A stretch of 64,000 nucleotides of DNA, from positions 12,367-76,366 of the forward strand of contig CAYNHV010000001.1 of NCBI GenBank assembly GCA_964397315.1. The letters run 5' to 3'. Below, piece after piece: positions 13,701 to 64,000 of the stretch; position 1 is the first letter of the stretch; every line of letters begins with the position of its first letter. The notes under the pieces are model-generated. The model was not told where the DNA came from, did no database searches, and saw nothing but the letters and a program-made list of their open reading frames with translations. The stretch is from an uncultured Methanosarcinales archaeon (lineage in GTDB: Archaea; Nanobdellota; Nanobdellia; Woesearchaeales; UBA12501). The position numbers were made by a program, and so were the translations under genes.

Positions 13701-14795
13701 TTATAAAGGTTTCTTTAGCTCCTTTTTCAGCTGTTTTATGAATCTCTTGTTGTCCTTCTTCTTTATCACTGCCCCGCAGGCATGCTCGTGACCCCCTCCA
13801 AACCCATCTACATTCTTCAGGGCGCTCTCAAGGGCTGCTGATATGTTATCTTCAGCTGACCTCAGGCTGTATTTTATCTCTCCTGACTTCTCCCTGCCCA
13901 CCAGTATTATCTTGGTAGGATAATTGAAAAGCATCTCGTTAGCTACCTCGCTTGAGAAGCTGAACTTCTCACCCTTGTAGATGAACACAAAGAAGTCGTC
14001 CTTTTTCACCTCTCTCTTGGCCTTTTTCAGGAGGTTTTCATAATGCTCCTCAACACTCTTGTATCTCTTGTAGAGGAACCTTCCTGCAGGGGTCTTCTGC
14101 TTCAGGATCTCATACGGGCTGTCTATCCTTGTGAGGATTTTCATGCACCTTATCACATTCTCCTTCCTGCCTTTAAGGACAAAAGAGAGTATTCTCACCA
14201 GCCTGCCTATGGGCTGGGCAAAGAGAGCTTCTTCAGGCCTTCTCACAGAAGAGTCAAGCAGCTCAGGGTACTGCCTTACAAATTCATCCCTGAAGCCGGG
14301 CATCTGCCAGTCCCCTATTGAGCCTGCCATTGCAATCCAAATGTCCTGCTTCACAACCTCATAGCATATCCTTGATATGCATGTGTCATCCCCAGGCTCT
14401 TTTTTCCTTGGGTTAAAGTAGAGCACCCTGTCCCTCTTGAGGGGGGTGTGGTGGTCAACCCAGACAACAGAAATGCCCATCTCAGACATGTCATCAATGA
14501 AATCCTGCTCTACCATTGCAATGTCAAGAACAAAAACCTTGTCAGGCAGGTACTCCTTTACCTTTCTGGTGTAATTCTTCCTGTCAATCTTGGGTGTTGT
14601 CTTTACAATGGATCCCTTGCCCTCACCTATCCTCCTGTAGAAGAGCAGGAACGAAGCCAGGCCGTCTGCGTCATCATGGAAGAATATGAGGGGCCTCTTG
14701 CAGGAGGAGAGTTCCTCCCTGAGCCTCTGGATGTGTCTTTTCTCAAGCATGATCTCACCAACACTGAATTCAAAAAAAGATGATATTATGGGCAT
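13701..14795 (-). CDS. DHH-family phosphoesterase (NrnA/RecJ-like, DHH + DHHA1)
   Basis: 'FFHDDADGLAS' (motif I/II), 'VDHHTP' (DHH) and 'GGGHEHACG' (DHHA1 GGGH). 364 aa. Confidence 0.75.
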   Translation of the reverse strand: MPIISSFFEFSVGEIMLEKRHIQRLREELSSCKRPLIFFHDDADGLASFLLFYRRIGEGKGSIVKTTPKIDRKNYTRKVKEYLPDKVFVLDIAMVEQDFIDDMSEMGISVVWVDHHTPLKRDRVLYFNPRKKEPGDDTCISRICYEVVKQDIWIAMAGSIGDWQMPGFRDEFVRQYPELLDSSVRRPEEALFAQPIGRLVRILSFVLKGRKENVIRCMKILTRIDSPYEILKQKTPAGRFLYKRYKSVEEHYENLLKKAKREVKKDDFFVFIYKGEKFSFSSEVANEMLFNYPTKIILVGREKSGEIKYSLRSAEDNISAALESALKNVDGFGGGHEHACGAVIKKKDNKRFIKQLKKELKKPL

Positions 14796-25953: not shown

Positions 25954-26032
25954 AGAGCTGTTTTTGCTGATCTCTCATGGTATTACCCACCCTTATTCCA
26001 CAACCATCAGGCAGGTTTTCTCTTTCTGAAAC

Positions 26033-26133
26033 TGCACAACTTCCAGCTTCTGCATCCAATAAGCCCGCCCAGTAATATGCTTAAAGCGCGCTTAGGTGGA
26101 GTTGGTGCGCTAAGCATATTGAAGGGGGTGGGA
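26033..26133. repeat. conserved ~100-bp intergenic element, copy 1 (contains a 13-bp-stem hairpin)
   Basis: ~85% identical to 29946..30078. The core is 'CTTCTGCATCCAATAAGCCC...ATATGCTTAAAGCGC...TGGAGTTGGTGC...AGCATAT..AAGGGGG'. Lies upstream of a + strand gene. Confidence 0.5.
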
Positions 26134-26468: not shown

Positions 26469-27428
26469 ATGGCAAAGTATCTTGTTACAGGAGGCGCGGG
26501 ATTCATAGGCAGCCATCTTGCTGAAACTCTTGCCAAACAGGGCCATAACGTCACTGTGGTGGACAACCTTTTTGACGGGAAGAGGGAGAACCTCAGCAGT
26601 GTCATGGACAGCATAGAGTTTATTGAGGGAGACATCCGCGACAAGCAGGTGATGGGCCGCGCCTGCAAAGGCGCTGATTTCATACTCCACCAGGCAGCGA
26701 GAAGGTCTGTTCCAGCCTCTCTAAAGGACCCTTTTGAGTATAATGACGTGAACATCAACGGCACTCTTAACATTCTTGAGGCAGCAAGAAGGAATGATGT
26801 CAGGAGGGTCTTGTTAGCTTCCTCCTCCTCTGTCTACGGTGATGTGAAGGAATTCCCTGAAAAGGAGTCTTTCAGGCCTGACCCAAGGTCTCCGTATGCC
26901 CTGACAAAGCTGGCAGGAGAGCATTACCTGAGCATATACTGGAAGCTCTACGGCCTTGAGACAGTCTCACTAAGGTACTTCAACGTGTTCGGCCCGCGCC
27001 AGGACCCTAACAGCCAGTACGCTGTTGTCATGCCTCTCTTCATAAAGGCAGTTTCAGAGGGAAATCAGCCGAAAATATTTGGGGATGGGGAGCAGAGCAG
27101 GGATTTCACTTACATAGCAAATGTTGTTGAAGGCAACCTGAAGGCCTGCGCTGCGCCAAAGGAGAAGGCTGCAGGAGAGGTCTTTAATATTGCTGACGGA
27201 AACTCCATAAGCGTCAATGAGATCGCGGGAAAGATAATCGAGATGTTAGGAAAAGAAATAAAGCCTGTGCACGCGGAAGAGAGACCCGGTGATGTGATGA
27301 AAACGCAGGCTGACAACACAAAGGCAAAAAAGCTGCTTGGCTACAAGGGGGATGTCAGCTTTGATGATGGATTGAGGAGAACTGTTGAATGGTTCAGCAA
27401 AGAATTCAGCAGAAATAAACAGCCTTAA
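26469..27428 (+). CDS. NAD-dependent epimerase/dehydratase (UDP-sugar 4-epimerase, WbpP/UDP-glucuronate epimerase-like)
   Basis: 'LVTGGAGFIGSHL', a YxxxK region and C-terminal 'DGEQSRDFTYI'. 319 aa. Confidence 0.85.
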   Translation: MAKYLVTGGAGFIGSHLAETLAKQGHNVTVVDNLFDGKRENLSSVMDSIEFIEGDIRDKQVMGRACKGADFILHQAARRSVPASLKDPFEYNDVNINGTLNILEAARRNDVRRVLLASSSSVYGDVKEFPEKESFRPDPRSPYALTKLAGEHYLSIYWKLYGLETVSLRYFNVFGPRQDPNSQYAVVMPLFIKAVSEGNQPKIFGDGEQSRDFTYIANVVEGNLKACAAPKEKAAGEVFNIADGNSISVNEIAGKIIEMLGKEIKPVHAEERPGDVMKTQADNTKAKKLLGYKGDVSFDDGLRRTVEWFSKEFSRNKQP

Positions 27429-28015
27429 ACGCCCAGATATTCTATTATGGCGCTTGCGCAGGCCTCAATATCCTGGCTCCCTGAATCAACAGTTATCTCA
27501 GGACCTTCAGGATCCTCATAAGGGGCGGAAACTCCTGTGAAGTCATCTATCTCCCCCTGCCTTGCCTTCCTGTAAAGGCCCTTGGGATCGCGCTTCTCGC
27601 ACTCCTCAACAGGGCACCTTACATAAACCTCAACAAAATCATCCCCTATCAGCTTTCTGGCAAAATCCCTCTCCTTCCTGTACGGGCTTATGAAGCAGAC
27701 AATAGTGTAAAGTCCCGAGTCATAGAACAGCCTTGCGACCTCAGCTATCCTTCTTATGTTCTCCCTCCTGTCCTCCTCTGAGAAGCCCAGGTCGCTGTTA
27801 AGGCCGTGCCTTACGTTATCACCGTCAAGAACATAGGATACAACACCCTTCTCAAAGAGCTTTTTCTCAACCTCCCTGGCTATTGATGACTTGCCTGAGC
27901 TTGGCAGGCCTGTGAACCACAGCACCCTGTTATTAAACCCGAGAAGCTTTGACCTGCTGTCTTTTGATACATGGCCGTCATGCCACACCACATTTGATGA
28001 TTTTCCTGATCCCAT
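27425..28015 (-). CDS. cysC: adenylylsulfate (APS) kinase
   Basis: P-loop 'GLPSSGKSS' and the canonical 'LDGDNVRHGLNSDLGFSEEDRRENIRR'. 196 aa. Confidence 0.85.
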   Translation of the reverse strand: MGSGKSSNVVWHDGHVSKDSRSKLLGFNNRVLWFTGLPSSGKSSIAREVEKKLFEKGVVSYVLDGDNVRHGLNSDLGFSEEDRRENIRRIAEVARLFYDSGLYTIVCFISPYRKERDFARKLIGDDFVEVYVRCPVEECEKRDPKGLYRKARQGEIDDFTGVSAPYEDPEGPEITVDSGSQDIEACASAIIEYLGV

Positions 28016-28039
28016 TTTGGAAGCTAATCTGGAAGCTGC

Positions 28040-28954
28040 TTAAAGCATTGCCTCAAGGAATTTCACAAGCTCCTCAGCGCAGTCCTCCATTGACTTTTTC
28101 TCTGTGTCAAGCACTATATCAGGATTCTCCGGCTCCTCATAATCCTGGGAAACGCCTGTAAAGTCCTTTATCTCCCCCTTCTCAGCTTTCCTGTAAAGTC
28201 CTTCCTCATCCCTCTTCTTGGATGTCTCAACAGATGATTTCACGTACACCTCAACATAATGGCCGTGCTTCTCAAGCTCTTTTCTTATCCTCTTTCTCTG
28301 CGACTCGTAAGGGGTTATGAACGAGCAAAGGACTATGGCCCTGTTCCGTGAGAGCATCTCAGCAATGTGCATGGCCCTCTCAAGGTTGGTGTCCCTGTCC
28401 TTCTTGGAGAAACCGAGGTCTTTTGATATTGTCTTACGGAGTATTGAGCCGTCAAGCCTCTCAGCCTGGATGCCTCTCTGCTCCAGCTTGTAGGCTGTAA
28501 GCTCTGCTATCTCTGACTTGCCTGACTTGGGCAGGCCTGTGAGCCACACAACAACGCCCTTTCCAGTGAGATAATCCTCAAGAATCTTGTCAGCTCCCTC
28601 TGGTATGAACTCCTTCCACGAGAAGTCATTCTTCTCAATCCTGTCCCTTATCTCTGTCGCGGATATCTGCTTTATGTTGTCAGGCACCTCTATCTCATTG
28701 ACCTCATACCCGACTCCCCTGCCGTAGTTTATGCTTTCAATGTCATCTATTATCATGACCTTTGCATCCACCTTCAGCTTTGACATCGCCGCCTCTATCA
28801 TCCTCTTTCTCATCAGGGGAGGGTAGATGTCATAAGGCGTGTCCCTCACTAGTATCAGGAGGGGCTTTCCCTCATCAATCTTCTTCTGCATTATTGCAAG
28901 GTGGCCCTTGTGGAATGGAGTCCATCTTCCAATAAAAACAGCTCTCTTAGTCAT
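28040..28954 (-). CDS. two-domain protein: HxGH (NMNAT/cytidylyltransferase-like) nucleotidyltransferase domain fused to an APS-kinase-like domain
   Basis: N-terminal 'AVFIGRWTPFHKGHLAIM' is an HxGH motif. The C-terminal P-loop is 'GLPKSGKSE', and 'LDGSILRKTISKDLGFSKKDRDTNLER' is degenerate relative to canonical DGDN(V/I)RHGL. 304 aa. Confidence 0.7.
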   Translation of the reverse strand: MTKRAVFIGRWTPFHKGHLAIMQKKIDEGKPLLILVRDTPYDIYPPLMRKRMIEAAMSKLKVDAKVMIIDDIESINYGRGVGYEVNEIEVPDNIKQISATEIRDRIEKNDFSWKEFIPEGADKILEDYLTGKGVVVWLTGLPKSGKSEIAELTAYKLEQRGIQAERLDGSILRKTISKDLGFSKKDRDTNLERAMHIAEMLSRNRAIVLCSFITPYESQRKRIRKELEKHGHYVEVYVKSSVETSKKRDEEGLYRKAEKGEIKDFTGVSQDYEEPENPDIVLDTEKKSMEDCAEELVKFLEAML

Positions 28955-29750
28955 TCTTGATCATCTCCAGAAGGGTGCTGTGTGACCTGTTGTTTGACAC
29001 TATAAAGCCTCCTTCCACCAGAGTGGAGGGCTTGTTGTATTTTAAAGGTTTCCCCTCCAGGCCTGTCATGATGCCTCCAGCCTCCCTGACTACGATGTCC
29101 ATTGCGCAGATATCCCACTCATGGACAGGACCGAGCCTTATGTAAACATCAGCCTCTCCTGCTGCTATAAGGCATCCCTTGACCGAGCTTCCGCTGGTAA
29201 TCGTAGATTTGAAGCCTGCTTCTTTTATTATTCTAAGGAGATTTTCTGAAGCGTGAGACCTGCTCCTTACTATTGTCATATCACTTATTTTGCCATTGCC
29301 TGAAACGCTTATCCTCCTTTTGCTCCCTTTTTTCTCGTGGAACGCCCCTCCCCCTTTCACAGCCCAGTACAGGTCTTCCTTTGCAGGCACGAATATCACT
29401 CCCAGCACTGGCTCTCCCTGCATGACAAGGGCTATGTTCACAGTAAACTCGCCAAGCTTGTTTATGAACTCCCTCGTGCCGTCCAGAGGGTCCACCACCC
29501 ACAAGGCATCTGCCCCAAGCCTTCCTGTGTCATCCTCTGCCTCCTCTGTGAGCATGGGATGTGGGAATCTTTTCAGCTCTTCTGTTATTATGTCATTGGC
29601 TGCATGGTCCGCTTCTGTCACAGGATTGTCCTCTCTTCCACCCTTCTGCCTGACACTGACACCCTCCCTTTCCTGAGAGTAGAACTCCATAATCCTCCTG
29701 CCGGCTTTCAGGGCTGCATTCCTGGCTGCCTCAAGCTCTTTCTCAAACAT
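28947..29750 (-). CDS. cysQ: inositol-monophosphatase-fold phosphatase, CysQ-like 3'(2'),5'-bisphosphate nucleotidase candidate
   Basis: 'WVVDPLDGTREF' and 'EADVYIRLG' IMPase/CysQ motifs, with the PAPS genes as context. 267 aa. Confidence 0.7.
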   Translation of the reverse strand: MFEKELEAARNAALKAGRRIMEFYSQEREGVSVRQKGGREDNPVTEADHAANDIITEELKRFPHPMLTEEAEDDTGRLGADALWVVDPLDGTREFINKLGEFTVNIALVMQGEPVLGVIFVPAKEDLYWAVKGGGAFHEKKGSKRRISVSGNGKISDMTIVRSRSHASENLLRIIKEAGFKSTITSGSSVKGCLIAAGEADVYIRLGPVHEWDICAMDIVVREAGGIMTGLEGKPLKYNKPSTLVEGGFIVSNNRSHSTLLEMIKND

Positions 29751-29945
29751 GATTCAGAGCCTGCAGGCCAGGTTTATATAGTTTTTGCAAGGATTAATCA
29801 AGAGGATGAGGTGTTCCAAGAGTGGTTTGCTTATGATGCCAGGCACTTCCAGGGGGGATAATAAGTTTATGCTGATAAATCCTGGTACTTCCCTCCCTTG
29901 CGAGGCTGGGTTAATGCTGATAGCTCATGGTAATTCCCGCCCTTA

Positions 29946-30078
29946 CTGCACAACTGCTTAGCAGGTTCACACCTTCTGGAACAGCACGACTCTCTGCTTC
30001 TGCCTCTAATAAGCCCTCCCAATGATATGCTTAAAGCGCTCTGTGGAGTTGGTGCTCTGAGCATGTTAAAGGGGGGGA
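29946..30078. repeat. conserved ~100-bp intergenic element, copy 2 (with ~45-nt insertion relative to copy 1)
   Basis: Same core as 26033..26133. Located ~250 bp upstream of the + strand sulfotransferase gene. Confidence 0.5.
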
Positions 30079-30332
30079 GAACTCTGGAGGAATTCACCCT
30101 TATAAAACGAGCATCATTCTTAGAACTCATAAACAGGAATGCAGCAAAGCTTGCATTAACCACCATATTTAGAGGAGGCTCAATTTCCTGCGCGTGAACT
30201 GAGTAACGCCGTTCTGGCGGCAATATCTGGAGGATTTACGAATCTTAAATAATATTCTGAGTGGCGGTCAACTTTGCTTGTGCTGAAGTGTTTTCAGCAA
30301 TCTTTAAATATGCGAAGTTTTGCTTAAACTAC

Positions 30333-30893
30333 ATGGTCAACTACATAGTCTCAGGCTGCCCCAGGTCAGGAACCTCCATGCTCATGAGGATACTGAACAA
30401 TGCAGGATTTCCAATTGCCAGGGATGAGAAGAGGAAGGCTGACAAGGACAATGTGCACGGATATTTTGAGGTGCATAACATAATAAACAAGCTTAAGGAC
30501 AATCCCGAGCTTGTGTCCAGGTATGACAACAAGATTCTTAAGGTGACGCACTTCGGCATCCAGTACCTTCCTGAGAGGGAAGAAGGATGGTACAAGGTGA
30601 TATACATTGAGAGGGACATTGAGGAGGTTCTTGACTCAATGGAGAAGATGATGGGCCAGTCTGACGAGCAGAGAGAGGAAACAAGGCAGGCCTTCCTGAA
30701 GTTTGACAAGAAGGTGAGAGAGCTCATGGAGGAGAGGGAGGACATTGATTACATAATAGTGAGCCACAGGAAGCTGATAAAAAAGCCAGATCCTGAGATT
30801 GAAAGGATAATAAGTTTCTACGGCATTGACCCATCAAGAAAGAAGGCAATGCTTGAGGCGATTGACCCAAAGAGCTACAGGAACAGGAGATAG
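30333..30893 (+). CDS. sulfotransferase family protein
   Basis: 5'-PSB-like 'IVSGCPRSGTSML' at the N-terminus and an 'IERD' region. Start chosen at 'MVNYIV'; the track ORF begins 24 codons upstream at 30261. Confidence 0.6.
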   Translation: MVNYIVSGCPRSGTSMLMRILNNAGFPIARDEKRKADKDNVHGYFEVHNIINKLKDNPELVSRYDNKILKVTHFGIQYLPEREEGWYKVIYIERDIEEVLDSMEKMMGQSDEQREETRQAFLKFDKKVRELMEEREDIDYIIVSHRKLIKKPDPEIERIISFYGIDPSRKKAMLEAIDPKSYRNRR

Positions 30894-31146: not shown

Positions 31147-33354
31147 TCACTCCCACTGCTTGATGTAGGTGACAACCCTTCCCCCCACAGGGTCTGAGAC
31201 ATCACTCAGAAGCTTGAACTTCTCAACCCCTATGCCATTCATGAAGTAAAGCCTTGCGAACACGCTGTCAGTAAGCTCTGTTCTCATGAGAACAGCCTTG
31301 TAAGCTCCTGTTTCAGGATACACCAGGAGGGTGTAAGGGCCTGTCTGGTTTGACTCAAAAATGCTGTCCTGCCCCACTATAATCACTGGGAATTGCTGGC
31401 CCTTATACTCCAGCTCTCCGCTTTTCATGTCAAGCACAAAGTTCTTCCCGCATTTCATAATTCTCTGCTCCTTGTCCTGGGAGCAGCGCGAGGGCTGCGA
31501 TATGGAAGGTATCTTTGGAAGGCTGAAGTCCTCGTGCTCCTCTGCATTGAAGTCCCAGTTTGTGTAGTATCTGAAAACATCCATCTTGCCTATCATGTCA
31601 TTGTCAAGCACAAGATACCCCTTCTGAGGGTTTTTGCAGAAGTCCTGGCTGAGGTTTATCTCGGGGCTTCTGCTTCTTTTTCCGCAGTCCAGCATCCTGA
31701 ATATCCTTATCGCCTCTGTCTCGTTTGACGTAAGGGCCCTCGCTGTCCAGTAGAGCCTTGGATTACCACTGCCGCCTGCAGCGTTGTTTATGAGCACATC
31801 ATCATCAAGATAATACTCATAAAGGTAGCCGTTGTGCCACCACAGATTTACTATGAAATCACCTGTTGCATTCTCCAGAATGTCCCTGCTTGCCTTCTCA
31901 ACAGGGCTTGTCATCAGGGGCGTCCTGGCTGTCCTTTCCTGGATGGCAGGAGAGAGTGATGCTGAGATTATGACAAGGAGTATGATGGTGAGTATAGCAA
32001 AAGAGTGCTTAACAGGAATCCTGGGCTTCAGCTTCTTGTCTGCAAAATTCAGCAGATGGGTGCTGCCGTAGGATATCAGAATAACAAAGGGCAGGCCGAA
32101 GAAGGAAAGGAACCTTATTGACTTCCAGCCAACAAAGAGCATCATAAGGAACCATAACGATGTAAAGACAGCGTATTTTGTTTTTTTGCCTGGCTTCCTG
32201 TGATGATAAATCATCATTAATAGTGACAGGAGGGCGAGAGCCGCGAGAATGCTGCCGTTAAGGACATAAAGCAGCGCGCTTTTTCCAGGCTGGGCTACCT
32301 CCATTCTTTCTTTTGCTGAGAAAAGCTCTGTTGTTGTTGAGAGTGCGCTGGGAAAGTTTCCTGTCTCCTCAAGCATGCCTAGCTTCTTCTTGACCCTGTC
32401 CACCTCGCTTCTCACGGATTTTGTGTCATCAGCTATTGAGAACACGCCTATTACAATTACAGTGAGTATTACTGCAACGACATAGTATTTTCTTGAGCCT
32501 TTCTCTTTTATTTTCCAGTATAACTCATATGCTGCATAAAGCACTGCAAACAAGATGATTATGAATATGATATAGTACCAACCTGACCAGGTGAACCTGA
32601 ACAGCAGTGTGACAGGCATTATCAGCAGAAGACAGATTATCTGCCTTATGTTGTTTCTTGCCTTGTCTTTCAGGCTTTTTCCCTTGTTCTTCATGCCAAT
32701 GCCTTCAAAGAACAGGAATACTATCAGGGCTGAGAGGAAGAGGTTGAGGAAGTTCGTGTCAACAAATCCTGCCTGCGTGGCTGTGAAGTACTGGGGGTGT
32801 ACGGCGAGCAGGAATGACGCAAGAAAGCCTCCCATGTTGTTCGTGAGCTTTCTTGCTGTGAAGAAAACAAGGACTATTGTGAGGAGGGAGAATATTGTGG
32901 GAAGCCAGAATGCAGTTCCCATCAGAGTGGCATTGCTGTTGAATGCGCTGGCCAGTTTGTAGGTGTTTGCCTCAAGCCACGGCAGGAATGACCTTGCTTC
33001 ACCGCCCTCAAGAACATGGTTTGTCCTCCTGAGATAGGTGTATGAATCAACACCATAGATGTAGGTGTTTCCATTATCATCCCTGAAAGCGCTCTTGTAC
33101 TGATCTGAGACCTCTTTTATCTTCTCTTTTGCCTGGCTTGTGCCTATAAGATTTTCGCTGCCCGTGCTCCTGTAGTATGCATTAACATTCTCCTCTGCCA
33201 TCCTGTCAATTGCAGGAAGGCCTGCCGCGTAGAGGTGGAGGGAGAGGCAGACTATGAGGGGGATGAGGATGAGAAATGCTGTCTGGCGCTTTTGCAGGAA
33301 CTTCCCTGCTTGTTTCATGCCTATTGAGACATCATCTTTTTTCTTTGAGGCCAT
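31147..33354 (-). CDS. aglB: AglB/STT3-like oligosaccharyltransferase (variant WWDYG motif: WWHNG)
   Basis: 735 aa. A TM1-first-loop 'GVDSYTYLRRTNHVLEGG' resembles the STT3 EL1 'DPYFNYRATRYLVENG'. There are ~12 TM segments, followed by a C-terminal soluble domain with 'NLWWHNGYLYEY'. Confidence 0.6.
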   Translation of the reverse strand: MASKKKDDVSIGMKQAGKFLQKRQTAFLILIPLIVCLSLHLYAAGLPAIDRMAEENVNAYYRSTGSENLIGTSQAKEKIKEVSDQYKSAFRDDNGNTYIYGVDSYTYLRRTNHVLEGGEARSFLPWLEANTYKLASAFNSNATLMGTAFWLPTIFSLLTIVLVFFTARKLTNNMGGFLASFLLAVHPQYFTATQAGFVDTNFLNLFLSALIVFLFFEGIGMKNKGKSLKDKARNNIRQIICLLLIMPVTLLFRFTWSGWYYIIFIIILFAVLYAAYELYWKIKEKGSRKYYVVAVILTVIVIGVFSIADDTKSVRSEVDRVKKKLGMLEETGNFPSALSTTTELFSAKERMEVAQPGKSALLYVLNGSILAALALLSLLMMIYHHRKPGKKTKYAVFTSLWFLMMLFVGWKSIRFLSFFGLPFVILISYGSTHLLNFADKKLKPRIPVKHSFAILTIILLVIISASLSPAIQERTARTPLMTSPVEKASRDILENATGDFIVNLWWHNGYLYEYYLDDDVLINNAAGGSGNPRLYWTARALTSNETEAIRIFRMLDCGKRSRSPEINLSQDFCKNPQKGYLVLDNDMIGKMDVFRYYTNWDFNAEEHEDFSLPKIPSISQPSRCSQDKEQRIMKCGKNFVLDMKSGELEYKGQQFPVIIVGQDSIFESNQTGPYTLLVYPETGAYKAVLMRTELTDSVFARLYFMNGIGVEKFKLLSDVSDPVGGRVVTYIKQWE

Positions 33355-47525: not shown

Positions 47526-48489
47526 GCTGGAAGGAAAGAGTGTGCTTGTGATAGGTGGAGCGGGATTCATAGGAAGCCATGTTGTGGCTGAACTGCTGAA
47601 GGAGCCTGTGAAAGAGGTCGTGATATATGATAATTTTGCTAGAGGAAGATATGAGCATATCAACAAGCTGCTGAAGGACAGCAGATGCAGGCTCTTTGAG
47701 GATGGAGGAGATATAAGAGACATTGATGTTCTGGATGCTGCAATGAAGGATGTTGACTATGTGATACACCTTGCAGCAATGTGGCTGCTCCACTGCAAGG
47801 ATTACCCACGAACAGCATTTAACGTCAATATTGAGGGCACTTTCAATGTTCTTGATGCCTGCGTCAAAAACAAGATAAAAAAGCTTGTGTATTCTTCATC
47901 AGCATCGGTATATGGCACTGCTGTTGAGGTGCCTATTAAAGAAAGCCACCCTTTCCTCAACAAGAACTTTTATGGGGCCACAAAAATAGCGTCAGAGGCG
48001 ATGTGCACAGCCTTTTATGACAGGTACGGCCTGGATTTTGTAGGATTAAGATATATGAACGTGTTCGGGCCGCTGCAGGACCAAAAAGCAGTTTACACAG
48101 GAGTAATACCAGTTATGCTGAACAAGATAGAAGAGGGAAAAGAGATAACCATAAATGGTGATGGCTCACAGGCCTATGACTTCATCTATGTAGAGGATGT
48201 TGCCAGGGCCAATGTATGCGCACTGAAGAGCGACGCAACAGATGACTTCTTCAATGTTGGATCAGGGATCAGGACAACAATAAAAGATCTCGCAGAGAAT
48301 ATACTCAAACTGAAGGGATCAGAGCAGAAGATAAGGTTCATTCCCTACAGCGAGGGGGATGCAAGATCTCTAGTACAGGACAGGGTGGGATCAACAGAGA
48401 AAGCTGAAAAAGAGCTCGGGTTCAGGCATAAGTATTCTCTTGAGGAAGGCCTGAAGAAGCTTATTGGGTGGAGAAATAAAGCAAAATAG
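47512..48489 (+). CDS. NAD-dependent epimerase/dehydratase
   Basis: 'VLVIGGAGFIGSHV', 'YGATK'. 325 aa. Confidence 0.85.
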   Translation: MMANKLEGKSVLVIGGAGFIGSHVVAELLKEPVKEVVIYDNFARGRYEHINKLLKDSRCRLFEDGGDIRDIDVLDAAMKDVDYVIHLAAMWLLHCKDYPRTAFNVNIEGTFNVLDACVKNKIKKLVYSSSASVYGTAVEVPIKESHPFLNKNFYGATKIASEAMCTAFYDRYGLDFVGLRYMNVFGPLQDQKAVYTGVIPVMLNKIEEGKEITINGDGSQAYDFIYVEDVARANVCALKSDATDDFFNVGSGIRTTIKDLAENILKLKGSEQKIRFIPYSEGDARSLVQDRVGSTEKAEKELGFRHKYSLEEGLKKLIGWRNKAK

Positions 48490-48504
48490 ATTAGGGGGAT
48501 TATA

Positions 48505-49935: not shown

Positions 49936-49936
49936 A

Positions 49937-50797
49937 ATGAAAATACTAGTTACAGGATCTTCAGGTTACCTAGGAAATGCTTTTATTAAACAATTTAAGG
50001 ATGAGCATGATATAATAGGACTTGACAGAGACAATAGAAAAAGAGATTATAAAAAAGTGCAAGGAGATCTCTCTAATTATAAGAAAATCATGAAAAATCT
50101 GGATGAGATAAAAGATGTGGACTGCATAGTGCATTTTGCGAGCCTTACTGATATAAAAGAGTGTGAAAAAAACAAAATGGCGGCTTTGGAAACTAATCTA
50201 ATGGGGACATGGGCACTTTTAGAGCATGGAAAAAGAGTGGGCATAAGAAAATTCATATACATCTCCACAGGAAGCATATATAAAAAAACAGAAAAAGAAG
50301 TGTCAGAAGAAGATGAAACAGAAGCTGATAACTTTTATGAAAGCACTAAACTTATGGCAGAAGAAATCTGCAAACAATATTCGAATAAATTTGATATAAT
50401 AATGTTAAGACCTTTTTTTCCTTATGGAAAAAACACCCATCCAAACAGATTGATAAATAAAATCATTCAGAATGTAAAAGATGGAAAGAGCATAATTCTA
50501 AATAGAAAAAATAAGCCAATTGTATCTCCAATATATGTAGATGACATGAGCAATGCAATAGATACCATAATAAAGAAGGACAAAGAAGAAAAAATTTCAA
50601 TATATAATCTTGCTGGCCCAAACGGATACTCCATAAAAGAGATTGCAGAAATAATTGGGAAAATAATCAATAAAAAACCAAAATACCAAAAAGGAAAGTC
50701 AGACTCCTCCAACTTCTGTGGTTCTGCAATAAGACTTAAAAGTTTAGGTATTAAATTGCATAATATAGAGGAAGGCTTAAGATTAACCATGGAATAA
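49937..50797 (+). CDS. NAD(P)-dependent epimerase/reductase (RmlD/short SDR-like)
   Basis: 'ILVTGSSGYLGNAF', a 'YESTK' YxxxK. 286 aa. Confidence 0.6.
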   Translation: MKILVTGSSGYLGNAFIKQFKDEHDIIGLDRDNRKRDYKKVQGDLSNYKKIMKNLDEIKDVDCIVHFASLTDIKECEKNKMAALETNLMGTWALLEHGKRVGIRKFIYISTGSIYKKTEKEVSEEDETEADNFYESTKLMAEEICKQYSNKFDIIMLRPFFPYGKNTHPNRLINKIIQNVKDGKSIILNRKNKPIVSPIYVDDMSNAIDTIIKKDKEEKISIYNLAGPNGYSIKEIAEIIGKIINKKPKYQKGKSDSSNFCGSAIRLKSLGIKLHNIEEGLRLTME

Positions 50798-50833
50798 GTT
50801 GGCAACATCAGCAGTATATAGTTTAAAAAGAAT

Positions 50834-52702: not shown

Positions 52703-52712
52703 ATGATAGGCA

Positions 52713-54394: not shown

Positions 54395-55146
54395 GGCATG
54401 TAAATATTGATATAAATAAGAACCTGATTAAAGGATTAGGTGAAAATGATTTGTCTTTCCTTAAAAGAGTTTACTCAAAGAATATTAATAAATACAGAGA
54501 AAGAATTAAGATGATTGGATTTGAAGATAAAAACGCTGTGCTTGATGCAGGATGTGGTTTCGGACAGTGGCTTTTTTCCCTTGCAGATATGAACAAAAAG
54601 GTGGTTGGAATAGATTTTTCACAAGAGAGAGTTGATGTATGCAAGGAAATAGCACAAAAGAATAATATAAACAATGTTGAAGTGATTAAATCAAGCATAA
54701 CTAATACAGAATTGAAAGAAGAATCTTTTGATGCCATATTTAGTTATAGTTCAATCTATTTTACTGATTACAGAAAAACACTTAAAGAATTTTACAGGTT
54801 GCTTAAAAAAGGGGGAGTATTGTACTTCACGACCAATAGTTGGGGAAAGTATATATCTGATATCATCAATAATCCTTATCCAACCAGCGATTTTTATCCA
54901 AGATGGTATGCTATAAAGACAATATGGAATACATTCAAGAACAAAAGAGAAGGTTTCTCTATGGAAAACGGAGCCTTGGTTATGTCAAAAAAAAAGACTA
55001 AGAGAATAATGCAAAAAATAGGTTTTTATGATATAAGAATCGATTATGACGGCCACTTATGCACAAAAGACCGAGAACCGCTCCCTTTAGTTCCAGAAAC
55101 ATATATAGGCATGACTCATTCTTTTGAGGTGTTAGCAAGAAAATGA
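54391..55146 (+). CDS. class I SAM-dependent methyltransferase
   Basis: Motif I 'VLDAGCGFGQW'. 251 aa. Confidence 0.75.
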   Translation: MRHVNIDINKNLIKGLGENDLSFLKRVYSKNINKYRERIKMIGFEDKNAVLDAGCGFGQWLFSLADMNKKVVGIDFSQERVDVCKEIAQKNNINNVEVIKSSITNTELKEESFDAIFSYSSIYFTDYRKTLKEFYRLLKKGGVLYFTTNSWGKYISDIINNPYPTSDFYPRWYAIKTIWNTFKNKREGFSMENGALVMSKKKTKRIMQKIGFYDIRIDYDGHLCTKDREPLPLVPETYIGMTHSFEVLARK

Positions 55147-55958
55147 CATGCAACATCTTTTTCATAGTGGGTTGTAGCAGATCTGGCACCACAGCCCTGG
55201 TAAAAATTCTCAATACAGCAGTTAATGCAGAGGTGTTTACCGAACAGGAACCTAAACTCTGCATAAATGCAAGGATAAACTATGAGTTTGGAATGCCTCG
55301 CAGTAAAGATTACATAAAAGAAAGCAAGAGTAAGGCAATCAAGGCTACTCTCTCTAAAGGGAAAAAATATATGGATAAGAACCCTAATTATCTATTCTTT
55401 ATAGATGAACTGATGGCTAACTTTGATTGTAAATTCATTTTTGTTATCAGAGATGGGAGAGATGTAGTAAGAAGTGCTATGGATTATGATGAGTATGGAA
55501 AGAATCTTTACAGAACATTTGAAGATGAAGATAACCCAAAAACAGTGCAACCTGAAGAAGATTTCTGGGATTTTGCAAGACTAAGGCCAAAAAAAACAGA
55601 TACTATATTTTATAGTTGGAAGAGTCTGACAAGATTTGAGAAAGCATCATGGTACTGGGCAAAATTCAATGGTCTGATACTTAAAAAGATAGAGAAGAAG
55701 GATAAAGACAGATTTATTACTGTGGATATCTCAAACATAAATCTAAAAGAAATTGAAAAAATATTCAATTTTGCAGGGCTTGAAGGATTTAATAGAGACA
55801 TAATAAGCAAAATGCTCAAAGAAAGAATCAACTCAGCACAAGAAAAGTGGGGCCTGAAAGATATCTTTCCAAAATGGGATAAATGGGATAATAATATGAA
55901 AGAATCGTTTAGCAGATATGCAGGACGCATGATGAAAAGATTAGGTTATAATAAATAA
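55143..55958 (+). CDS. sulfotransferase family protein
   Basis: 5'-PSB 'FIVGCSRSGTTAL' and 3'-PB 'VIRDGRDVVRSAM'. 271 aa. Confidence 0.75.
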   Translation: MTCNIFFIVGCSRSGTTALVKILNTAVNAEVFTEQEPKLCINARINYEFGMPRSKDYIKESKSKAIKATLSKGKKYMDKNPNYLFFIDELMANFDCKFIFVIRDGRDVVRSAMDYDEYGKNLYRTFEDEDNPKTVQPEEDFWDFARLRPKKTDTIFYSWKSLTRFEKASWYWAKFNGLILKKIEKKDKDRFITVDISNINLKEIEKIFNFAGLEGFNRDIISKMLKERINSAQEKWGLKDIFPKWDKWDNNMKESFSRYAGRMMKRLGYNK

Positions 55959-57598: not shown

Positions 57599-57612
57599 TA
57601 AATATATAACCA

Positions 57613-62291: not shown

Positions 62292-64000
62292 ATGAAAATC
62301 CTTCACATCATAACAAAGCTTGAGGTTGGCGGGGCCCAGCAGAACACAATATACACTGTTGAGCACCTTAATAGGCAGGAGAATGTTCATTCTGAGATAA
62401 TCGCAGGCCCCATTGTCAGCAGGAAGAACCTGATGAAGAACGCAAGGGACAGGGGCATAAATGTCACTGTAATAAAAGGCATAACCAATGAGATAAGGCC
62501 TATAAAAAACCTCACAGCCATGCTGAAAGCCTACAAGCACATAAGAAAAGGAAGGTTTGACATTGTCCACACCCACTCCTCTGTTGCAGGAATAATAGGC
62601 AGGATTGCTGCAAGGCTGGCAAAAACACCAGTAATAATACACACAGTGCATGGCTGGGGTATCAGGCCTGACCTTCCAAAGTGGAAGCTGAAGATATACA
62701 TTCTCCTGGAAAGGATCTGCGCCAGATTCACACACAAGCTCATAACAGTCTCAGAGAGGGACATAAGAAAAGGCCTAAAAAACAGCATAGGAAAGAAGAG
62801 CCAGTACACTGTAATAAGAAGCGGGATTGACATCAGCAGATTCTCAAAAAATATAAACAAGGAAAAGAAGAAAAAAGAGCTTGGCATTGACCCAAAAAAG
62901 CCTGTAGTAGGCATGGTAGGAAGGCTTGACAAGCAGAAGAACCCTCTTGACTTTGTGAGAGCAGCCTCAAAAGTGCAGAAAAAGCATCCAGAAGTCCAGT
63001 TCATCATAGCTGGGGACGGGCCTCTGAGAAAGCAGACAGAATCCCTAATAAAAAAACTGAAAGTAAATAATTTCCACATACTGGGATTCAGGGATGATGT
63101 TAATGAAATCATCCAGATTTTAGACATCTCAGTCCTGACCTCCCTCTGGGAGGGCCTGCCAAGAGTGTTTCCAGAGTCAATGGCTGCAAAAAAACCAATC
63201 ATTGCAACAGATGTTGACGGAGCAAGAGAGGCAATAATCAACAGCAAAAACGGCTTCATAACACAGCCTAAAAAGCCGGAGCAGACAGCAGAAAAAATAT
63301 ATTTCCTCCTGCAGAATCCCAAAAAGGCAAAGAAAATGGGAGAAAATGGCTTTGCAATGGCTGAAAAGTTCTCCCTGAAAACCATGCTTAACAAATTATA
63401 TGAGTTATATCAGAGACGGCAAAAAATGTCTGGAATAAAAGAAAGTTTTATACTTAAAGATAGACCTGCATTACGTAATGCATTGTTCAAGATATTTCAG
63501 ATAATTAACATCACAGCCAGAAAATGTTTTATACCTCTTATAGGATACAACTCATCAGAAAAAATAGTGTCAGAGAGATACAGATTCGTCTGCATAACAA
63601 TACCCATTTGTGGAAGGACCACTCTTCTTGACCTTTTCAGAAATTATTTTGATGATTTTTACATAACAAAAAAGCCTCTCAGCAGATTACTAAAAAGAAA
63701 TCCAGAGTATAACAATTACTTCAAGTTCACAATAATCAGGAACCCCTGGAGCAGAACAGTATCGTGCTATAACAAAAGGGTAGTTAATATCAATGCGTTA
63801 AAAAAGGTTTACCTCCTGAGCAGGTTTAAAGGATTAAACCCAAATATGACATTCAAGGATTTCATAAGATGGCTTAACACAAAGGAGGGTAGTGACGAAA
63901 GAGCTGACAAGCACTGGAAGTCCCCCCATAAATTTCTCATGGATGGTAATGGTAAGATAAGATGTGATTATGTGGGAAAGCTAGAAAGTTTAAGCAGTGA
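62292..64000 (+). CDS. GT4 glycosyltransferase fused in frame to a Sulfotransfer_2-like (carbohydrate sulfotransferase-like) domain; 3' end beyond the window
   Basis: 'MKILHIITKLEVGGAQ' and 'EGLPRVFPESMAAKKPIIATDVDGAREAI...NGF' mark the GT4 part. From ~63430 the sequence reads 'RFVCITIPICGRTTLLDLF' and 'FTIIRNPWSRTVSCYNKR' (5'-PSB/3'-PB-like). No stop occurs between the domains in my reading. Confidence 0.65.
   Translation, partial: MKILHIITKLEVGGAQQNTIYTVEHLNRQENVHSEIIAGPIVSRKNLMKNARDRGINVTVIKGITNEIRPIKNLTAMLKAYKHIRKGRFDIVHTHSSVAGIIGRIAARLAKTPVIIHTVHGWGIRPDLPKWKLKIYILLERICARFTHKLITVSERDIRKGLKNSIGKKSQYTVIRSGIDISRFSKNINKEKKKKELGIDPKKPVVGMVGRLDKQKNPLDFVRAASKVQKKHPEVQFIIAGDGPLRKQTESLIKKLKVNNFHILGFRDDVNEIIQILDISVLTSLWEGLPRVFPESMAAKKPIIATDVDGAREAIINSKNGFITQPKKPEQTAEKIYFLLQNPKKAKKMGENGFAMAEKFSLKTMLNKLYELYQRRQKMSGIKESFILKDRPALRNALFKIFQIINITARKCFIPLIGYNSSEKIVSERYRFVCITIPICGRTTLLDLFRNYFDDFYITKKPLSRLLKRNPEYNNYFKFTIIRNPWSRTVSCYNKRVVNINALKKVYLLSRFKGLNPNMTFKDFIRWLNTKEGSDERADKHWKSPHKFLMDGNGKIRCDYVGKLESLSS

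What the first reader, a model, noticed from the sequence alone, without database searches (positions are those of the whole stretch)
27425..30893. Self-contained PAPS supply module (CysC, CysC-fusion, CysQ) plus sulfotransferase, immediately upstream of AglB
This 3.5-kb block holds an APS kinase, a second APS-kinase-containing fusion, an IMPase-fold CysQ-like PAP phosphatase and a sulfotransferase with the PSB motif SGCPRSGTS. The oligosaccharyltransferase AglB follows at 31147..33354.

Two further sulfotransferases sit in the downstream glycan island (55143..55958 and the GT4 fusion at 62292). This suggests a dedicated pathway for sulfating a surface or N-linked glycan, not sulfur assimilation.
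Basis: partly seen in the sequence, partly recalled or inferred. Interest (0 to 1): 0.7.

Follow-up and report, generated by a model that had tools for sequence, protein, structure and literature searches.

The report
PAPS sulfation module with hidden sulfurylase
A tiny-genome (DPANN) archaeon carries a compact gene set for making the activated sulfate donor PAPS to sulfate its surface sugars, and the missing first enzyme is probably an unrecognised, miniature relative of an NAD-making enzyme that recurs next to sulfate-pathway genes in many bacteria, archaea and phages.

Summary
The window holds no sulfate-reduction genes, so glycan sulfation is the best reading.

The listed module is not self-contained, because the 64-kb window has no canonical ATP sulfurylase (Sat or CysDN).

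The fusion's N-terminal 128 residues (Ndom) form a compact HxGH nucleotidyltransferase. It is closest to archaeal NMN adenylyltransferase (NMNAT). It keeps the ATP-handling residues but lacks about 24-33 residues, replaced by an invariant N-Y-G-R-x-V-G-Y loop.

- In 63 of 80 genomes retrieved by Ndom motifs alone, it is fused (in either order) or adjacent to an APS kinase.
- In Nitrospirales it follows sulfite reductase and an Fe-S APS reductase, where Sat would sit.
- Sulfotransferases are frequent neighbours.

I infer that Ndom is an unrecognised sulfate adenylyltransferase.

The fused kinase domain here has lost the catalytic Asp (LDGS). All 11 such loci carry a separate canonical CysC; fusions with an intact DGD do not.

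No biochemistry exists, and Sat elsewhere in the genome is not excluded. The link to N-glycans specifically is weak.

The parts
26469..27428 (+). NAD-dependent sugar-nucleotide epimerase/dehydratase (TviC/GalE-like). It is convergent with cysC and part of the conserved four-gene block.
   Evidence: Pfam Epimerase E 5.9e-69. The best NCBIfam similarity is TviC, below its cutoff. The gene is syntenic in L002 and L082. The same cluster occurs in 12 DPANN loci.
27425..28015 (-). Canonical APS kinase CysC (196 aa), the presumed working kinase of the module.
   Evidence: APS_kinase E 2e-66 and TIGR00455 252.7 bits against a cutoff of 138.7. The motifs GLPSSGKS, LDGDNVR and CFISP are intact.
28040..28564 (-). 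APS-kinase-like C-terminal domain of the 304-aa fusion (residues about 131-304). The P-loop and APS-contact positions are kept, but the catalytic-loop Asp is lost (LDGSILR). It is probably non-catalytic, serving APS/PAPS binding, scaffolding or regulation.
   Evidence: APS_kinase E 5e-53. In 94 fusion homologues this position reads D35 K21 S13 G8 N6 H4. The motif list is and the alignment.
28571..28954 (-). Ndom: the N-terminal 128-residue compact HxGH nucleotidyltransferase domain of the fusion, proposed to be the sulfate adenylyltransferase of the module.
28947..29750 (-). CysQ-type 3'(2'),5'-bisphosphate nucleotidase (PAP phosphatase). It is the first gene of the cysQ-fusion-cysC operon and overlaps the fusion gene by 8 nt.
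   Evidence: Inositol_P E 1.3e-55 and TIGR01331 228.3 bits against a cutoff of 228.8. The DPLDGT and WD..A motifs are visible in the translation. A TATA-like TTTATATA lies about 25 nt upstream on the coding strand.
30333..30893 (+). PAPS-type sulfotransferase, divergent from the cysQ operon. The ORF is open from 30261; the probable start is the ATG at 30333.
   Evidence: Sulfotransfer_1 E 1.4e-11 and Sulfotransfer_3 E 1.1e-9. The 5'-PSB motif GCPRSGTS is present. TTTAAATA lies at 30304-30311.
31147..33354 (-). STT3-family oligosaccharyltransferase (AglB) with an atypical WWHNG motif, convergent with the sulfotransferase gene.
   Evidence: PF02516 84.7 bits against a cutoff of 24.5. It has WWHNG where homologues P0293-P0295 have WWDKG.
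55143..55958 (+). Second sulfotransferase, in the low-GC glycan island.
   Evidence: Sulfotransfer_3 E 1.1e-11 and Sulfotransfer_1 E 6.4e-7. The motif GCSRSGTT is visible.
62292..63998 (+). GT4 glycosyltransferase fused to a Sulfotransfer_2 domain. It runs off the end of the window.
   Evidence: Glycos_transf_1 E 8.5e-44 and Sulfotransfer_2 E 1.4e-12 at residues 425-568.
25960..26133 (.). Copy A of a direct repeat of about 175 nt that brackets the epimerase-cysC-fusion-cysQ block.
   Evidence: blastn gives 77.8% identity over 171 nt, E 3e-33. The alignment is and the repeat families D1 and D3.
29910..30080 (.). Copy B of the same direct repeat, in the 580-nt divergent intergenic region between cysQ and the sulfotransferase.
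   Evidence: It contains a long hairpin and has no Rfam match.

Best explanation
The block is a dedicated PAPS supply and recycling unit for sulfating cell-surface glycans in a Woesearchaeota-type DPANN archaeon.

Proposed chemistry:
1. The N-terminal 128-residue domain (Ndom) of the 304-aa fusion is an NMNAT-derived HxGH nucleotidyltransferase whose nicotinamide-nucleotide pocket region has been replaced by a short Arg-bearing loop. It adenylylates sulfate: ATP + sulfate -> APS + PPi. This step is inferred.
2. The neighbouring canonical CysC phosphorylates APS to PAPS. This rests on family membership.
3. The divergently transcribed sulfotransferase and two more in the downstream glycan island, one fused to a GT4, transfer sulfate to sugars. 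The family is shown; the acceptor is inferred.
4. CysQ hydrolyses the inhibitory by-product PAP. This rests on family membership.

The kinase-like domain fused to Ndom has lost the catalytic-loop Asp. It most likely survives as an APS/PAPS-binding scaffold or regulator, after a separate CysC took over catalysis. This is inferred from a perfect correlation across loci.

Ndom plus an APS kinase therefore acts as a minimal PAPS synthase that does without Sat or CysDN.
For: No Sat, CysD, CysN, CysH or sulfite reductase was found in the 64 kb (motif scan).

Ndom as an active adenylyltransferase:
- The fold is confident (pLDDT 94).
- Ndom residues R10, H15, H18 and R103 align with M. thermautotrophicum NMNAT R11, H16, H19 and R136, the positions targeted in PDB mutant entries 1m8f, 1m8g, 1m8k and 1m8j. 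They are invariant or at least 90% conserved across 42 diverse members.
- About 24-33 NMNAT residues between beta3 and 'GYEV' are replaced by the near-invariant loop N-[YW]-G-R-x-V-G-Y.

Association with APS metabolism:
- The 80 loci were retrieved with two Ndom-only peptide patterns. In 18 Ndom is fused to an APS-kinase(-like) domain, and in 45 such a gene lies within 600 bp.
- Of the top 150 cluster representatives, 46 are kinase-Ndom fusions and 14 are Ndom-kinase fusions, so both orders occur.
- Five Nitrospirales loci read Rrf2 - sulfite reductase - Fe-S-type CysH - standalone Ndom, with no kinase.
- Sulfotransferases share the operon in Chitinophagaceae, Saprospiraceae, marine DPANN and other DPANN loci.
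- No Sat or CysDN signature occurs in about 1.39 Mb of these loci, except in L049, where Ndom is a 62-aa remnant beside CysD and CysN.
- Two members weakly match Pfam ATP-sulfurylase (26.0 and 23.8 bits against a gathering score of 24.3). NCBIfam's Sat/CysC model aligns to the window protein from residue 83, upstream of the kinase domain.

Degenerate kinase domain:
- All 11 loci whose fusion has a degenerate loop (DGS, DSK, DGG, NST, DSN, QSK) carry a separate canonical CysC.
- Fusions with an intact DGD (L009, L010, L012, P0046 in L087-L089, and bacterial L022, L027, L039, P0114) show no separate CysC.
Against: - There is no biochemical evidence for any member of the family.
- By sequence and structure Ndom is nearer to NMNAT and PPAT than to Sat. 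It lacks the Sat motifs QxRNPxHxxH and GRDHAG.
- Only 64 kb of a contig of about 155 kb, from an incomplete genome, was examined, so a canonical sat or cysDN may lie elsewhere. Some DPANN genomes are reported to encode sat and cysN (bioRxiv 10.1101/2020.05.14.094862).
- Larger bacterial genomes that carry Ndom very likely also have CysDN.
- The sulfate-binding role of R79 and R37 is inferred without coordinates or docking.
- NMNAT fused to a P-loop kinase has a known non-sulfur precedent in NadR.
- Glycan sulfation itself is untested.
Confidence: 0.6

Rival explanations
1. The N-terminal domain is an ordinary NMN (or other) adenylyltransferase unrelated to sulfate. APS is supplied by a canonical Sat or CysDN elsewhere in the genome, and the block contributes only the kinase, the PAP phosphatase and the sulfotransferase.
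For: The best sequence and structure matches are archaeal NMNATs. One source annotates a standalone member as NMN adenylyltransferase. Some DPANN genomes are reported to have sat and cysN. The rest of the genome was not seen.
Against: NMNAT residues about 77-109 are deleted and replaced by a family-specific loop. The domain scores far below the NadM model cutoff (34.2 against 181.2 bits). The fusion or adjacency with APS kinase, the position in sulfite reductase-CysH operons and the linkage to sulfotransferases across many phyla, including bacteria, have no rationale under an NAD role.
Confidence: 0.2
2. The N-terminal domain is a non-catalytic regulatory or oligomerisation domain of an APS kinase. 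It would be analogous to the inactive Sat-like domains of the Thiobacillus denitrificans and Entamoeba histolytica APS kinases.
For: Two-domain APS kinases with dead Sat-like domains that modulate the kinase are a known precedent (PMC13213808; PMC3734648).
Against: All ATP-handling residues are invariant or nearly so in Ndom, unlike the precedents, which lost their substrate-binding elements. About half of the family is standalone (80 of the top 150), including copies in operons without any kinase. In this lineage it is the kinase domain that shows decay, not Ndom.
Confidence: 0.1
3. Ndom and its kinase partner make a different 3'-phosphorylated adenylate, in an NadR-like or CoA-synthase-like two-step logic on another small anion or phospho-compound. 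The association with sulfate genes would be only partial.
For: The short partner kinases in Marinimicrobia, MGIII and SAR11 (142-155 aa) match CysC only at E of about 1e-10 to 1e-12 and lack the lid segment. The phage copies sit in contexts with no obvious sulfur pathway. NadR and PPAT-DPCK show that the same architecture serves other substrates (established knowledge).
Against: Those short kinases keep the [LIV]DGDDLR loop of APS kinases. In the window lineage, Bacteroidota and Nitrospirales the partners are bona fide CysC, CysQ, CysH, sulfite reductase and sulfotransferases.
Confidence: 0.07
4. The module serves assimilatory sulfate reduction (PAPS to sulfite to sulfide) rather than sulfation.
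For: CysC and CysQ belong to the assimilatory pathway in enterobacteria (established knowledge). Ndom itself sits in an assimilatory operon in Nitrospirales.
Against: The window has no PAPS reductase or sulfite reductase, has three sulfotransferases, and its whole context is glycan biosynthesis.
Confidence: 0.03

Closest known systems
Bifunctional PAPS synthases (metazoan PAPSS1/2; Aquifex aeolicus Sat-APS kinase, PDB 2gks)
   Different: Ndom has 128 residues, against a much larger Sat module. It matches no Pfam ATP-sulfurylase model, lacks the QxRNPxHxxH and GRDHAG motifs, and descends from the NMNAT branch. In this window the kinase half is degenerate.
Penicillium chrysogenum ATP sulfurylase with a C-terminal APS-kinase-like allosteric domain
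   Same: A sulfate-activating domain is followed by an APS-kinase-like domain that has no kinase activity and binds a pathway nucleotide (PMC3734648). This matches the proposed status of residues 131-304 (LDGS).
   Different: The catalytic domain there is canonical Sat. Allosteric PAPS binding is demonstrated there and is only conjectured here. Here the P-loop is still intact.
Two-domain APS kinases with an inactive Sat-like domain (Thiobacillus denitrificans 3cr8; Entamoeba histolytica EhAPSK)
   Same: The architecture is an N-terminal nucleotidyltransferase-fold domain plus a C-terminal APS kinase, with one half catalytically dead.
   Different: The polarity is opposite. In those proteins the Sat-like half has lost its substrate-binding elements and the kinase works. 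Here the nucleotidyltransferase motifs are invariant and the kinase loop has decayed.
Archaeal NMN adenylyltransferase (NadM type: MJ0541 1f9a, MTH150 1ej2) and NadR (NMNAT plus ribosylnicotinamide kinase)
   Different: Ndom lacks about 24-33 residues (MJ0541 residues 77-109), replaced by the loop N-Y-G-R-x-V-G-Y. By my recollection that NMNAT segment carries nicotinamide contacts; I did not test this. Ndom falls far below the NadM model cutoff. Its partners are sulfur-pathway genes, not NAD genes.
Sulfated archaeal N-glycans (Haloferax volcanii low-salt tetrasaccharide, Agl5-Agl15; Agl7 needed for the sulfated hexose)
   Same: This is the precedent for sulfate on a dolichol-phosphate-linked, N-linked archaeal glycan encoded by a dedicated gene cluster (PMC3892788).
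   Different: That glycan is in a haloarchaeon, it is attached without AglB, and no PAPS-supply genes are described in that cluster. Here the glycan and its acceptor are unknown and the organism is an uncultured DPANN archaeon.

Membership tests
APS kinase (CysC; PF01583 / TIGR00455): standalone gene 27425-28015 | Profile score above the curated cutoff | tested here: met
   TIGR00455 252.7 bits against 138.7; PF01583 223.2 bits against 21.1.
APS kinase (CysC; PF01583 / TIGR00455): standalone gene 27425-28015 | P-loop GxxxxGK[ST], the LDGDNxR loop and the SFISP segment | tested here: met
   GLPSSGKS, LDGDNVR and CFISP are present.
APS kinase: C-terminal domain of the fusion (28040-28564) | Profile score above the curated cutoff | tested here: met
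   TIGR00455 190.5 bits against 138.7; PF01583 E 5e-53.
APS kinase: C-terminal domain of the fusion (28040-28564) | The second Asp of the LDGD(N)xR loop. It is conserved in 66 of 67 Ndom-adjacent standalone kinases here. Its role as Mg/3'-OH catalytic residue is recalled from the APS-kinase literature. | tested here: not met
   The window has LDGSILR. Among 94 fusion homologues the position reads D35 K21 S13 G8 N6 H4.
CysQ 3'(2'),5'-bisphosphate nucleotidase (TIGR01331) | Equivalog profile score above the cutoff | tested here: inconclusive
   228.3 bits against a cutoff of 228.8. Pfam Inositol_P is far above its cutoff. CysQ is the best-scoring IMPase subfamily.
CysQ 3'(2'),5'-bisphosphate nucleotidase (TIGR01331) | PAP phosphatase activity | not testable with these tools
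   This needs an enzyme assay. The conserved position next to CysC in at least 11 loci supports the role.
Canonical ATP sulfurylase (Sat; PF01747): Ndom | Match to the Pfam ATP-sulfurylase profile, and the QxRNPxHxxH and GRDHAG motifs | tested here: not met
   The window protein has no PF01747 hit at E <= 0.01. Its motifs are GRWTPFHKGH and YGRGVGY. Only two distant family members touch PF01747 (26.0 and 23.8 bits).
Canonical ATP sulfurylase (Sat; PF01747): Ndom | HxGH nucleotidyltransferase fold shared with the Sat catalytic domain | tested here: met
Canonical ATP sulfurylase (Sat; PF01747): Ndom | Catalysis of ATP + sulfate -> APS + PPi | not testable with these tools
   This is inferred from genomic context only.
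Archaeal NMN adenylyltransferase (NadM; TIGR01527): Ndom | Equivalog profile score above the cutoff | tested here: not met
   34.2 bits against a cutoff of 181.2, and only residues 4-68 match.
Archaeal NMN adenylyltransferase (NadM; TIGR01527): Ndom | ATP-site motifs GRxxPxHxGH and ISxTxxR | tested here: met
   GRWTPFHKGH and ISATEIR are present. G9, H15, H18 and S98 are invariant, and R10, T100 and R103 are at least 90% conserved.
Archaeal NMN adenylyltransferase (NadM; TIGR01527): Ndom | The complete core, including the segment between beta3 and 'GYEV' (MJ0541 residues 77-109) | tested here: not met
   Profile positions 79-88 span MJ0541 residues 76-110, so about 24-33 residues are missing. 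The domain has 128 residues against 168-181.
PAPS-dependent sulfotransferase (PF00685 / PF13469): 30333-30893 | Profile score above the cutoff and a 5'-phosphosulfate-binding loop | tested here: met
   PF00685 44.7 bits against 22; PF13469 39.3 bits against 27; GCPRSGTS is present.
AglB / STT3 oligosaccharyltransferase | STT3 profile score above the cutoff | tested here: met
   PF02516 84.7 bits against 24.5.
AglB / STT3 oligosaccharyltransferase | WWDxG motif | tested here: not met
   The window has WWHNG at residue 505. Homologues P0293-P0298 have WWDKG or WWDFG.

The most novel reading that the evidence does not exclude
Ndom defines a third, previously unrecognised class of ATP sulfurylase, alongside Sat and CysDN. 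It is a module of about 115-130 residues that evolved from NadM-type NMN adenylyltransferase by replacing the nicotinamide-nucleotide-binding segment with an Arg-bearing loop.

Paired or fused with an APS kinase, it forms the smallest known PAPS synthase. Paired with an Fe-S APS reductase, it feeds assimilatory sulfate reduction.

The family comprises at least 241 clusters at 50% identity. It occurs in DPANN archaea, marine Thermoplasmata, Bacteroidota, Marinimicrobia, Nitrospirales, Chlamydiae, SAR11-related MAGs and cultured Xylella, Xanthomonas and Stenotrophomonas phages. Where the sources examined name its members at all, they are called 'adenylyl-sulfate kinase', 'kinase', 'NMN adenylyltransferase' or hypothetical.
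Probability: 0.55. Interest if true: 0.85.

Novelty: new variant of a known kind. Interest (0 to 1): 0.72.

Why it matters
Sulfate activation is thought to have two enzymatic solutions, homo-oligomeric Sat and GTP-driven CysDN.

A third, miniature solution would change several things:
- It would alter how sulfur assimilation and sulfation capacity are scored in genomes and metagenomes. Pathways now called incomplete, with cysC or cysH but no sat or cysDN, could be complete.
- It would explain how genome-reduced DPANN archaea and marine lineages afford sulfated surface glycans or lipids.
- It would add a candidate auxiliary metabolic gene in phages.
- It would offer a very small enzyme pair for in-vitro PAPS regeneration.

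It would also be a clear case of substrate-pocket replacement turning a dinucleotide synthase into an anion adenylyltransferase.

Even without that, the locus gives gene-level evidence for glycan sulfation in an uncultured DPANN archaeon.

Tried and rejected
- **Canonical Sat/CysDN/CysH/Sir in the window.** I looked with Pfam on about 50 ORFs and a six-frame motif scan. None was found.
- **The same scan over 90 sequences, about 1.39 Mb.** It found CysH in five Nitrospirales loci and CysD/CysN only in L049. My first CysD regex (SGGKDS) was too strict, so I loosened it.
- **Ndom as a truncated Sat.** I rejected this as a family assignment. The profile against PDB gives NMNAT 8e-18 but Sat only 0.036, and Foldseek's top 50 contain no Sat.
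- **RNA or pseudogene in the 580-nt cysQ/sulfotransferase intergenic region.** There was no Rfam hit at gathering score or at E <= 1, no tRNA, folding z-scores of -0.26 and -1.62, and no convincing protein remnant. Instead I found a direct repeat.
- **Literature.** The ten permitted full-text searches found no description of an NMNAT-like/APS-kinase fusion or an alternative ATP sulfurylase. The library is incomplete, so this is weak evidence of absence.
- **Full-length AF2 model.** pLDDT 86.5 and pTM 0.63 gave no confident inter-domain geometry, so I make no channelling claim.

Full report
**1. Checking the observation**

- 27425-28015(-) is a canonical APS kinase: PF01583 E 2e-66, and TIGR00455 252.7 bits against a cutoff of 138.7.
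- 28040-28954(-) encodes 304 aa, with an APS-kinase domain at residues 132-283 (E 5e-53).
- 28947-29750(-) is an IMPase-fold protein whose best subfamily is CysQ. TIGR01331 scores 228.3 bits, a hair under the 228.8 cutoff.
- 30261-30893(+) is a sulfotransferase (PF00685 E 1.4e-11) carrying GCPRSGTS.
- 31147-33354(-) is an STT3/AglB protein.
- The two downstream sulfotransferases are real: 55143-55958, and a GT4-Sulfotransfer_2 fusion from 62292 that runs off the window.

One minor correction concerns the sulfotransferase start. It most likely begins at the ATG at 30333, 22-29 nt downstream of a TTTAAATA box. cysQ has a matching TATA-like box on the other strand. cysQ, the fusion and cysC therefore form one leftward operon with an 8-nt overlap and a 24-nt gap, divergent from the sulfotransferase.

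The organism is a Woesearchaeota/Nanobdellota (DPANN) archaeon. The closest homologue (89%) and the closest locus are labelled as such.

**2. What the window does and does not contain**

Pfam annotation of about 50 ORFs shows several groups of genes:
- an A/V-type ATPase operon;
- sugar-nucleotide enzymes (PGM/PMM, UDP-glucose dehydrogenases, NTP transferase, several epimerases, a DegT aminotransferase);
- GT4 enzymes and a flippase;
- methyltransferases, an asparagine-synthase-like amidotransferase and a B12 radical-SAM protein.

There is also no Sat and no CysD or CysN. A six-frame motif scan agrees. A module made of CysC, a second CysC and CysQ cannot start from sulfate, so the 'self-contained' claim has a gap.

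**3. The overlooked domain**

Residues 1-128 of the fusion (Ndom) give only sub-threshold hits: CTP_transf_like E 5.5e-3 and NadM-type NMNAT 34-42 bits against cutoffs of 127-181.

Structure and similarity:
- With 72 homologues, AlphaFold gives a confident compact Rossmann-like model (pLDDT 94).
- Foldseek's best hits are archaeal NMNATs (TM 0.75), followed by PPAT.
- A profile of 42 diverse family members hits NMNAT at E 8e-18, but the PAPSS1 Sat domain only at E 0.036, on the ISxT motif.

Ndom is therefore an NMNAT-derived member of the same HxGH superfamily as Sat, not a Sat.

Conserved and missing parts:
- The profile alignment equates Ndom R10, H15, H18 and R103 with M. thermautotrophicum NMNAT R11, H16, H19 and R136. 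Those are the residues mutated in PDB entries 1m8f, 1m8g, 1m8k and 1m8j.
- These residues are invariant or at least 90% conserved in the family.
- MJ0541 residues 77-109 have no counterpart. They are replaced by a near-invariant loop S-[VI]-N-[YW]-G-R-x-V-G-Y.
- From memory, that NMNAT segment carries nicotinamide-contacting residues. I could not verify this with the tools.

The ATP half-site is thus preserved, while the second-substrate site is rebuilt and smaller, with a new conserved Arg.

**4. Genomic association**

I scanned one genome per species (GTDB) using two peptide patterns that both lie in Ndom, so retrieval was blind to neighbouring genes. This gave 80 loci. ORF calling plus phmmer showed:
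- Ndom fused to an APS-kinase(-like) domain in 18 loci;
- a separate kinase gene within 600 bp in 45 loci;
- no kinase in 16 loci, several of which are fragments.

Both fusion orders exist. Among the 150 best representatives of 241 clusters (E <= 1e-10; 50%-identity clustering of 1.8 billion proteins), 46 are kinase-Ndom, 14 are Ndom-kinase and 80 are standalone.

The lineages are Woesearchaeota/Nanoarchaeia, MGIII/Poseidoniia, Flavobacteriales, Chitinophagaceae, Saprospiraceae, Marinimicrobia, Chlamydiae, a Pelagibacteraceae MAG and Nitrospirales.

Sulfotransferases share the operon or neighbourhood in several of these:
- Chitinophagaceae: kinase-Ndom-Sulfotransfer_3;
- Saprospiraceae: sulfotransferase-desaturase-LGT-fusion;
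- marine DPANN;
- Marinimicrobia;
- the DPANN relatives, where sulfotransferases are the most frequent specific neighbours after GT1/GT4 (7 and 5 of 148 ORFs).

The most telling case is five Nitrospirales loci that read Rrf2 regulator - sulfite reductase (NIR_SIR + TusA) - CysH - standalone Ndom, with no kinase. That CysH carries the ECC...CAPC and KECGLH cysteines. By established knowledge these mark Fe-S, APS-dependent reductases. APS kinase, APS reductase and, through PAPS, sulfotransferases and CysQ share one requirement: a supply of APS.

No Sat or CysDN signature occurs anywhere in about 1.39 Mb of these loci, with one exception. In L049 CysD (carrying an intein) and CysN are present, and Ndom is reduced to a 62-residue remnant.

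Two distant family members graze Pfam's ATP-sulfurylase model (26.0 and 23.8 bits against a gathering score of 24.3). NCBIfam's Sat/CysC model aligns to the window protein from residue 83.

The sources name these proteins 'adenylyl-sulfate kinase', 'kinase', 'nicotinamide mononucleotide adenylyltransferase' or nothing. Ten full-text searches found no description of the family.

**5. The second kinase is probably not a kinase**

Every standalone kinase next to an Ndom keeps [LIV]DGD[NED][LIV]R (66 of 67). In the DPANN Ndom-kinase fusions the second Asp is free to vary: D35 K21 S13 G8 N6 H4 among 94 sequences. The window has LDGSILR.

The P-loop, the R173, F182, D186, R187 and N190 positions and the FITP segment remain conserved, so nucleotide binding is likely kept.

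The correlation across loci is clean:
- All 11 loci whose fusion has a degenerate loop also encode a separate canonical CysC in the cluster. These are the window, L002, L003, L001/L004 (one locus fetched twice), L005, L006, L007, L008, L011, L013 and L014.
- The fusions with an intact DGD have no separate CysC in the visible flanks. These are L009, L010, L012, P0046 at L087-L089, and the bacterial kinase-Ndom fusions L022, L027, L039 and P0114. L010 and L012 are truncated on one side, so the negative set is smaller than it looks.

This fits an ancestral bifunctional enzyme whose kinase half was relieved of catalysis once a standalone CysC was present. It then persisted as a binding, scaffold or regulatory domain. 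The documented parallels are the kinase-like allosteric domain of Penicillium Sat and, with reversed polarity, the dead Sat-like domains of T. denitrificans and E. histolytica APS kinases (PMC3734648; PMC13213808).

The full-length model folds both domains but gives no reliable interface (pTM 0.63).

**6. Mechanism proposed**

- Shown: the gene families, operon structure, synteny, conservation patterns and fold.
- Inferred: Ndom catalyses ATP + sulfate -> APS + PPi; CysC makes PAPS; the three sulfotransferases decorate glycans built by the surrounding enzymes; CysQ removes PAP.

The thermodynamically poor first step would be pulled by the tightly linked kinase. That would explain why Ndom is so often fused to one or adjacent to one.

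The link to N-glycans is the weakest part:
- AglB adjacency recurs only in L007.
- AglB here has WWHNG where its nearest relatives have WWDKG.
- In Haloferax the sulfated N-glycan is attached without AglB (PMC3892788).

'Surface glycan' is therefore safer than 'N-glycan'.

**7. Rivals**

- Ndom could be an NAD-pathway or other adenylyltransferase, with Sat encoded elsewhere. The window covers 64 kb of a contig of about 155 kb, and some DPANN genomes have sat and cysN. This cannot be excluded, but it does not explain the cross-phylum linkage.
- Ndom could be a dead regulatory domain. Invariant catalytic residues and the abundance of standalone copies argue against this.
- Some branches, such as those with short lid-less kinases in Marinimicrobia/MGIII or the phage copies, may act on another substrate.
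- An assimilatory role for this particular locus is unlikely.

**8. Novelty and verdict**

As a PAPS/sulfotransferase cluster in an archaeal glycan island, the locus is a new member of a known kind. What raises it is the non-canonical sulfate-activation candidate and the decayed kinase domain, so I file it as a new variant of a known kind. The stronger reading, a third class of ATP sulfurylase, is stated separately. Cultured phages (Xylella phage Salvo gp32) and simple complementation make the hypothesis directly testable.

Noticed in passing
window 25960-26133 and 29910-30080: A direct repeat of about 175 nt (77-84% identity) brackets exactly the epimerase-cysC-fusion-cysQ block. This is the same block that is syntenic with the closest relative, L002. 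The repeat contains a long hairpin, has no Rfam match and has no copy in the 91 fetched loci. It could be a cassette boundary, a recombination scar or a duplicated regulatory or ncRNA element.
   Followed up: partly
window 31147-33354 (AglB residue 505): The oligosaccharyltransferase has WWHNG instead of the WWDxG motif. Its three nearest homologues (42-49% identity) have WWDKG and more distant ones WWDFG. Its activity or acceptor recognition may therefore be altered.
   Followed up: partly
window 27879-27921 vs 28506-28548: A 43-nt stretch is 84% identical at the DNA level between the P-loop-coding parts of cysC and the fusion's kinase domain. This hints at gene conversion or a relatively recent shared origin of the two kinase copies.
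   Followed up: no
L091 3989-4735 (Xylella phage Salvo NC_042345 15167-15913, gp32 'kinase'); L090 (IMG/VR contig, 362 kb): Cultured Casjensviridae phages of Xylella, Xanthomonas and Stenotrophomonas encode a short APS-kinase-like domain fused to Ndom (Ndom HMM E 2e-30). A jumbo viral contig encodes a 355-aa version. In Salvo a gene annotated as cysteine dioxygenase lies about 3.5 kb upstream.
   Followed up: partly
L043 6059-10414 (and L034, L038, L045, L046): Nitrospirales operon of Rrf2 - sulfite reductase-TusA fusion - Fe-S CysH - standalone Ndom. This is an assimilatory sulfate-reduction operon with Ndom where Sat would be expected.
   Followed up: yes
L049 4699-8104 and 10001-10186: An archaeal MAG has CysN and an intein-containing CysD next to a 62-residue remnant of the Ndom fusion. 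This is the only locus with canonical CysDN and the only one with a decayed Ndom.
   Followed up: partly
L035 10506-10901 (also L031, L032, L036): In marine Flavobacteriales an additional 132-aa TagD-like cytidylyltransferase (motif HPGY) sits between cysC and Ndom. It is not a member of the Ndom family.
   Followed up: partly
P0227 (432 aa) and P0157 (249 aa); window 13701-14795: Ndom relatives are also fused to a DHHA1 domain and to DUF6717. By established knowledge the DHH/DHHA1 family includes NrnA-type pAp phosphatases. The window itself encodes a DHH/DHHA1 protein at 13701-14795(-).
   Followed up: no
window about 48000-64000: GC content drops from about 0.44-0.49 to 0.33-0.40 across the glycan island, which holds the other two sulfotransferases, a B12 radical-SAM protein, an asparagine-synthase-like enzyme, a WbmS-like deacetylase and methyltransferases. 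This suggests a horizontally acquired or fast-evolving surface-glycan island.
   Followed up: no
window 39393-43034: A patch of defence or toxin-antitoxin-like genes (AAA_14 + DUF4143 ATPase, AbiEii nucleotidyltransferase toxin, and small ORFs not annotated here) separates the AglB region from the glycan island.
   Followed up: no
L070, L057, L061, L053, L042: In Marinimicrobia, marine Thermoplasmata and some Bacteroidota and Gammaproteobacteria, Ndom (with or without a short kinase) lies beside S-adenosylmethionine synthetase, S-adenosylhomocysteine hydrolase, a PfkB kinase or, judged from its N-terminal sequence only, a methionine synthase. This is a second, sulfur-amino-acid context.
   Followed up: partly
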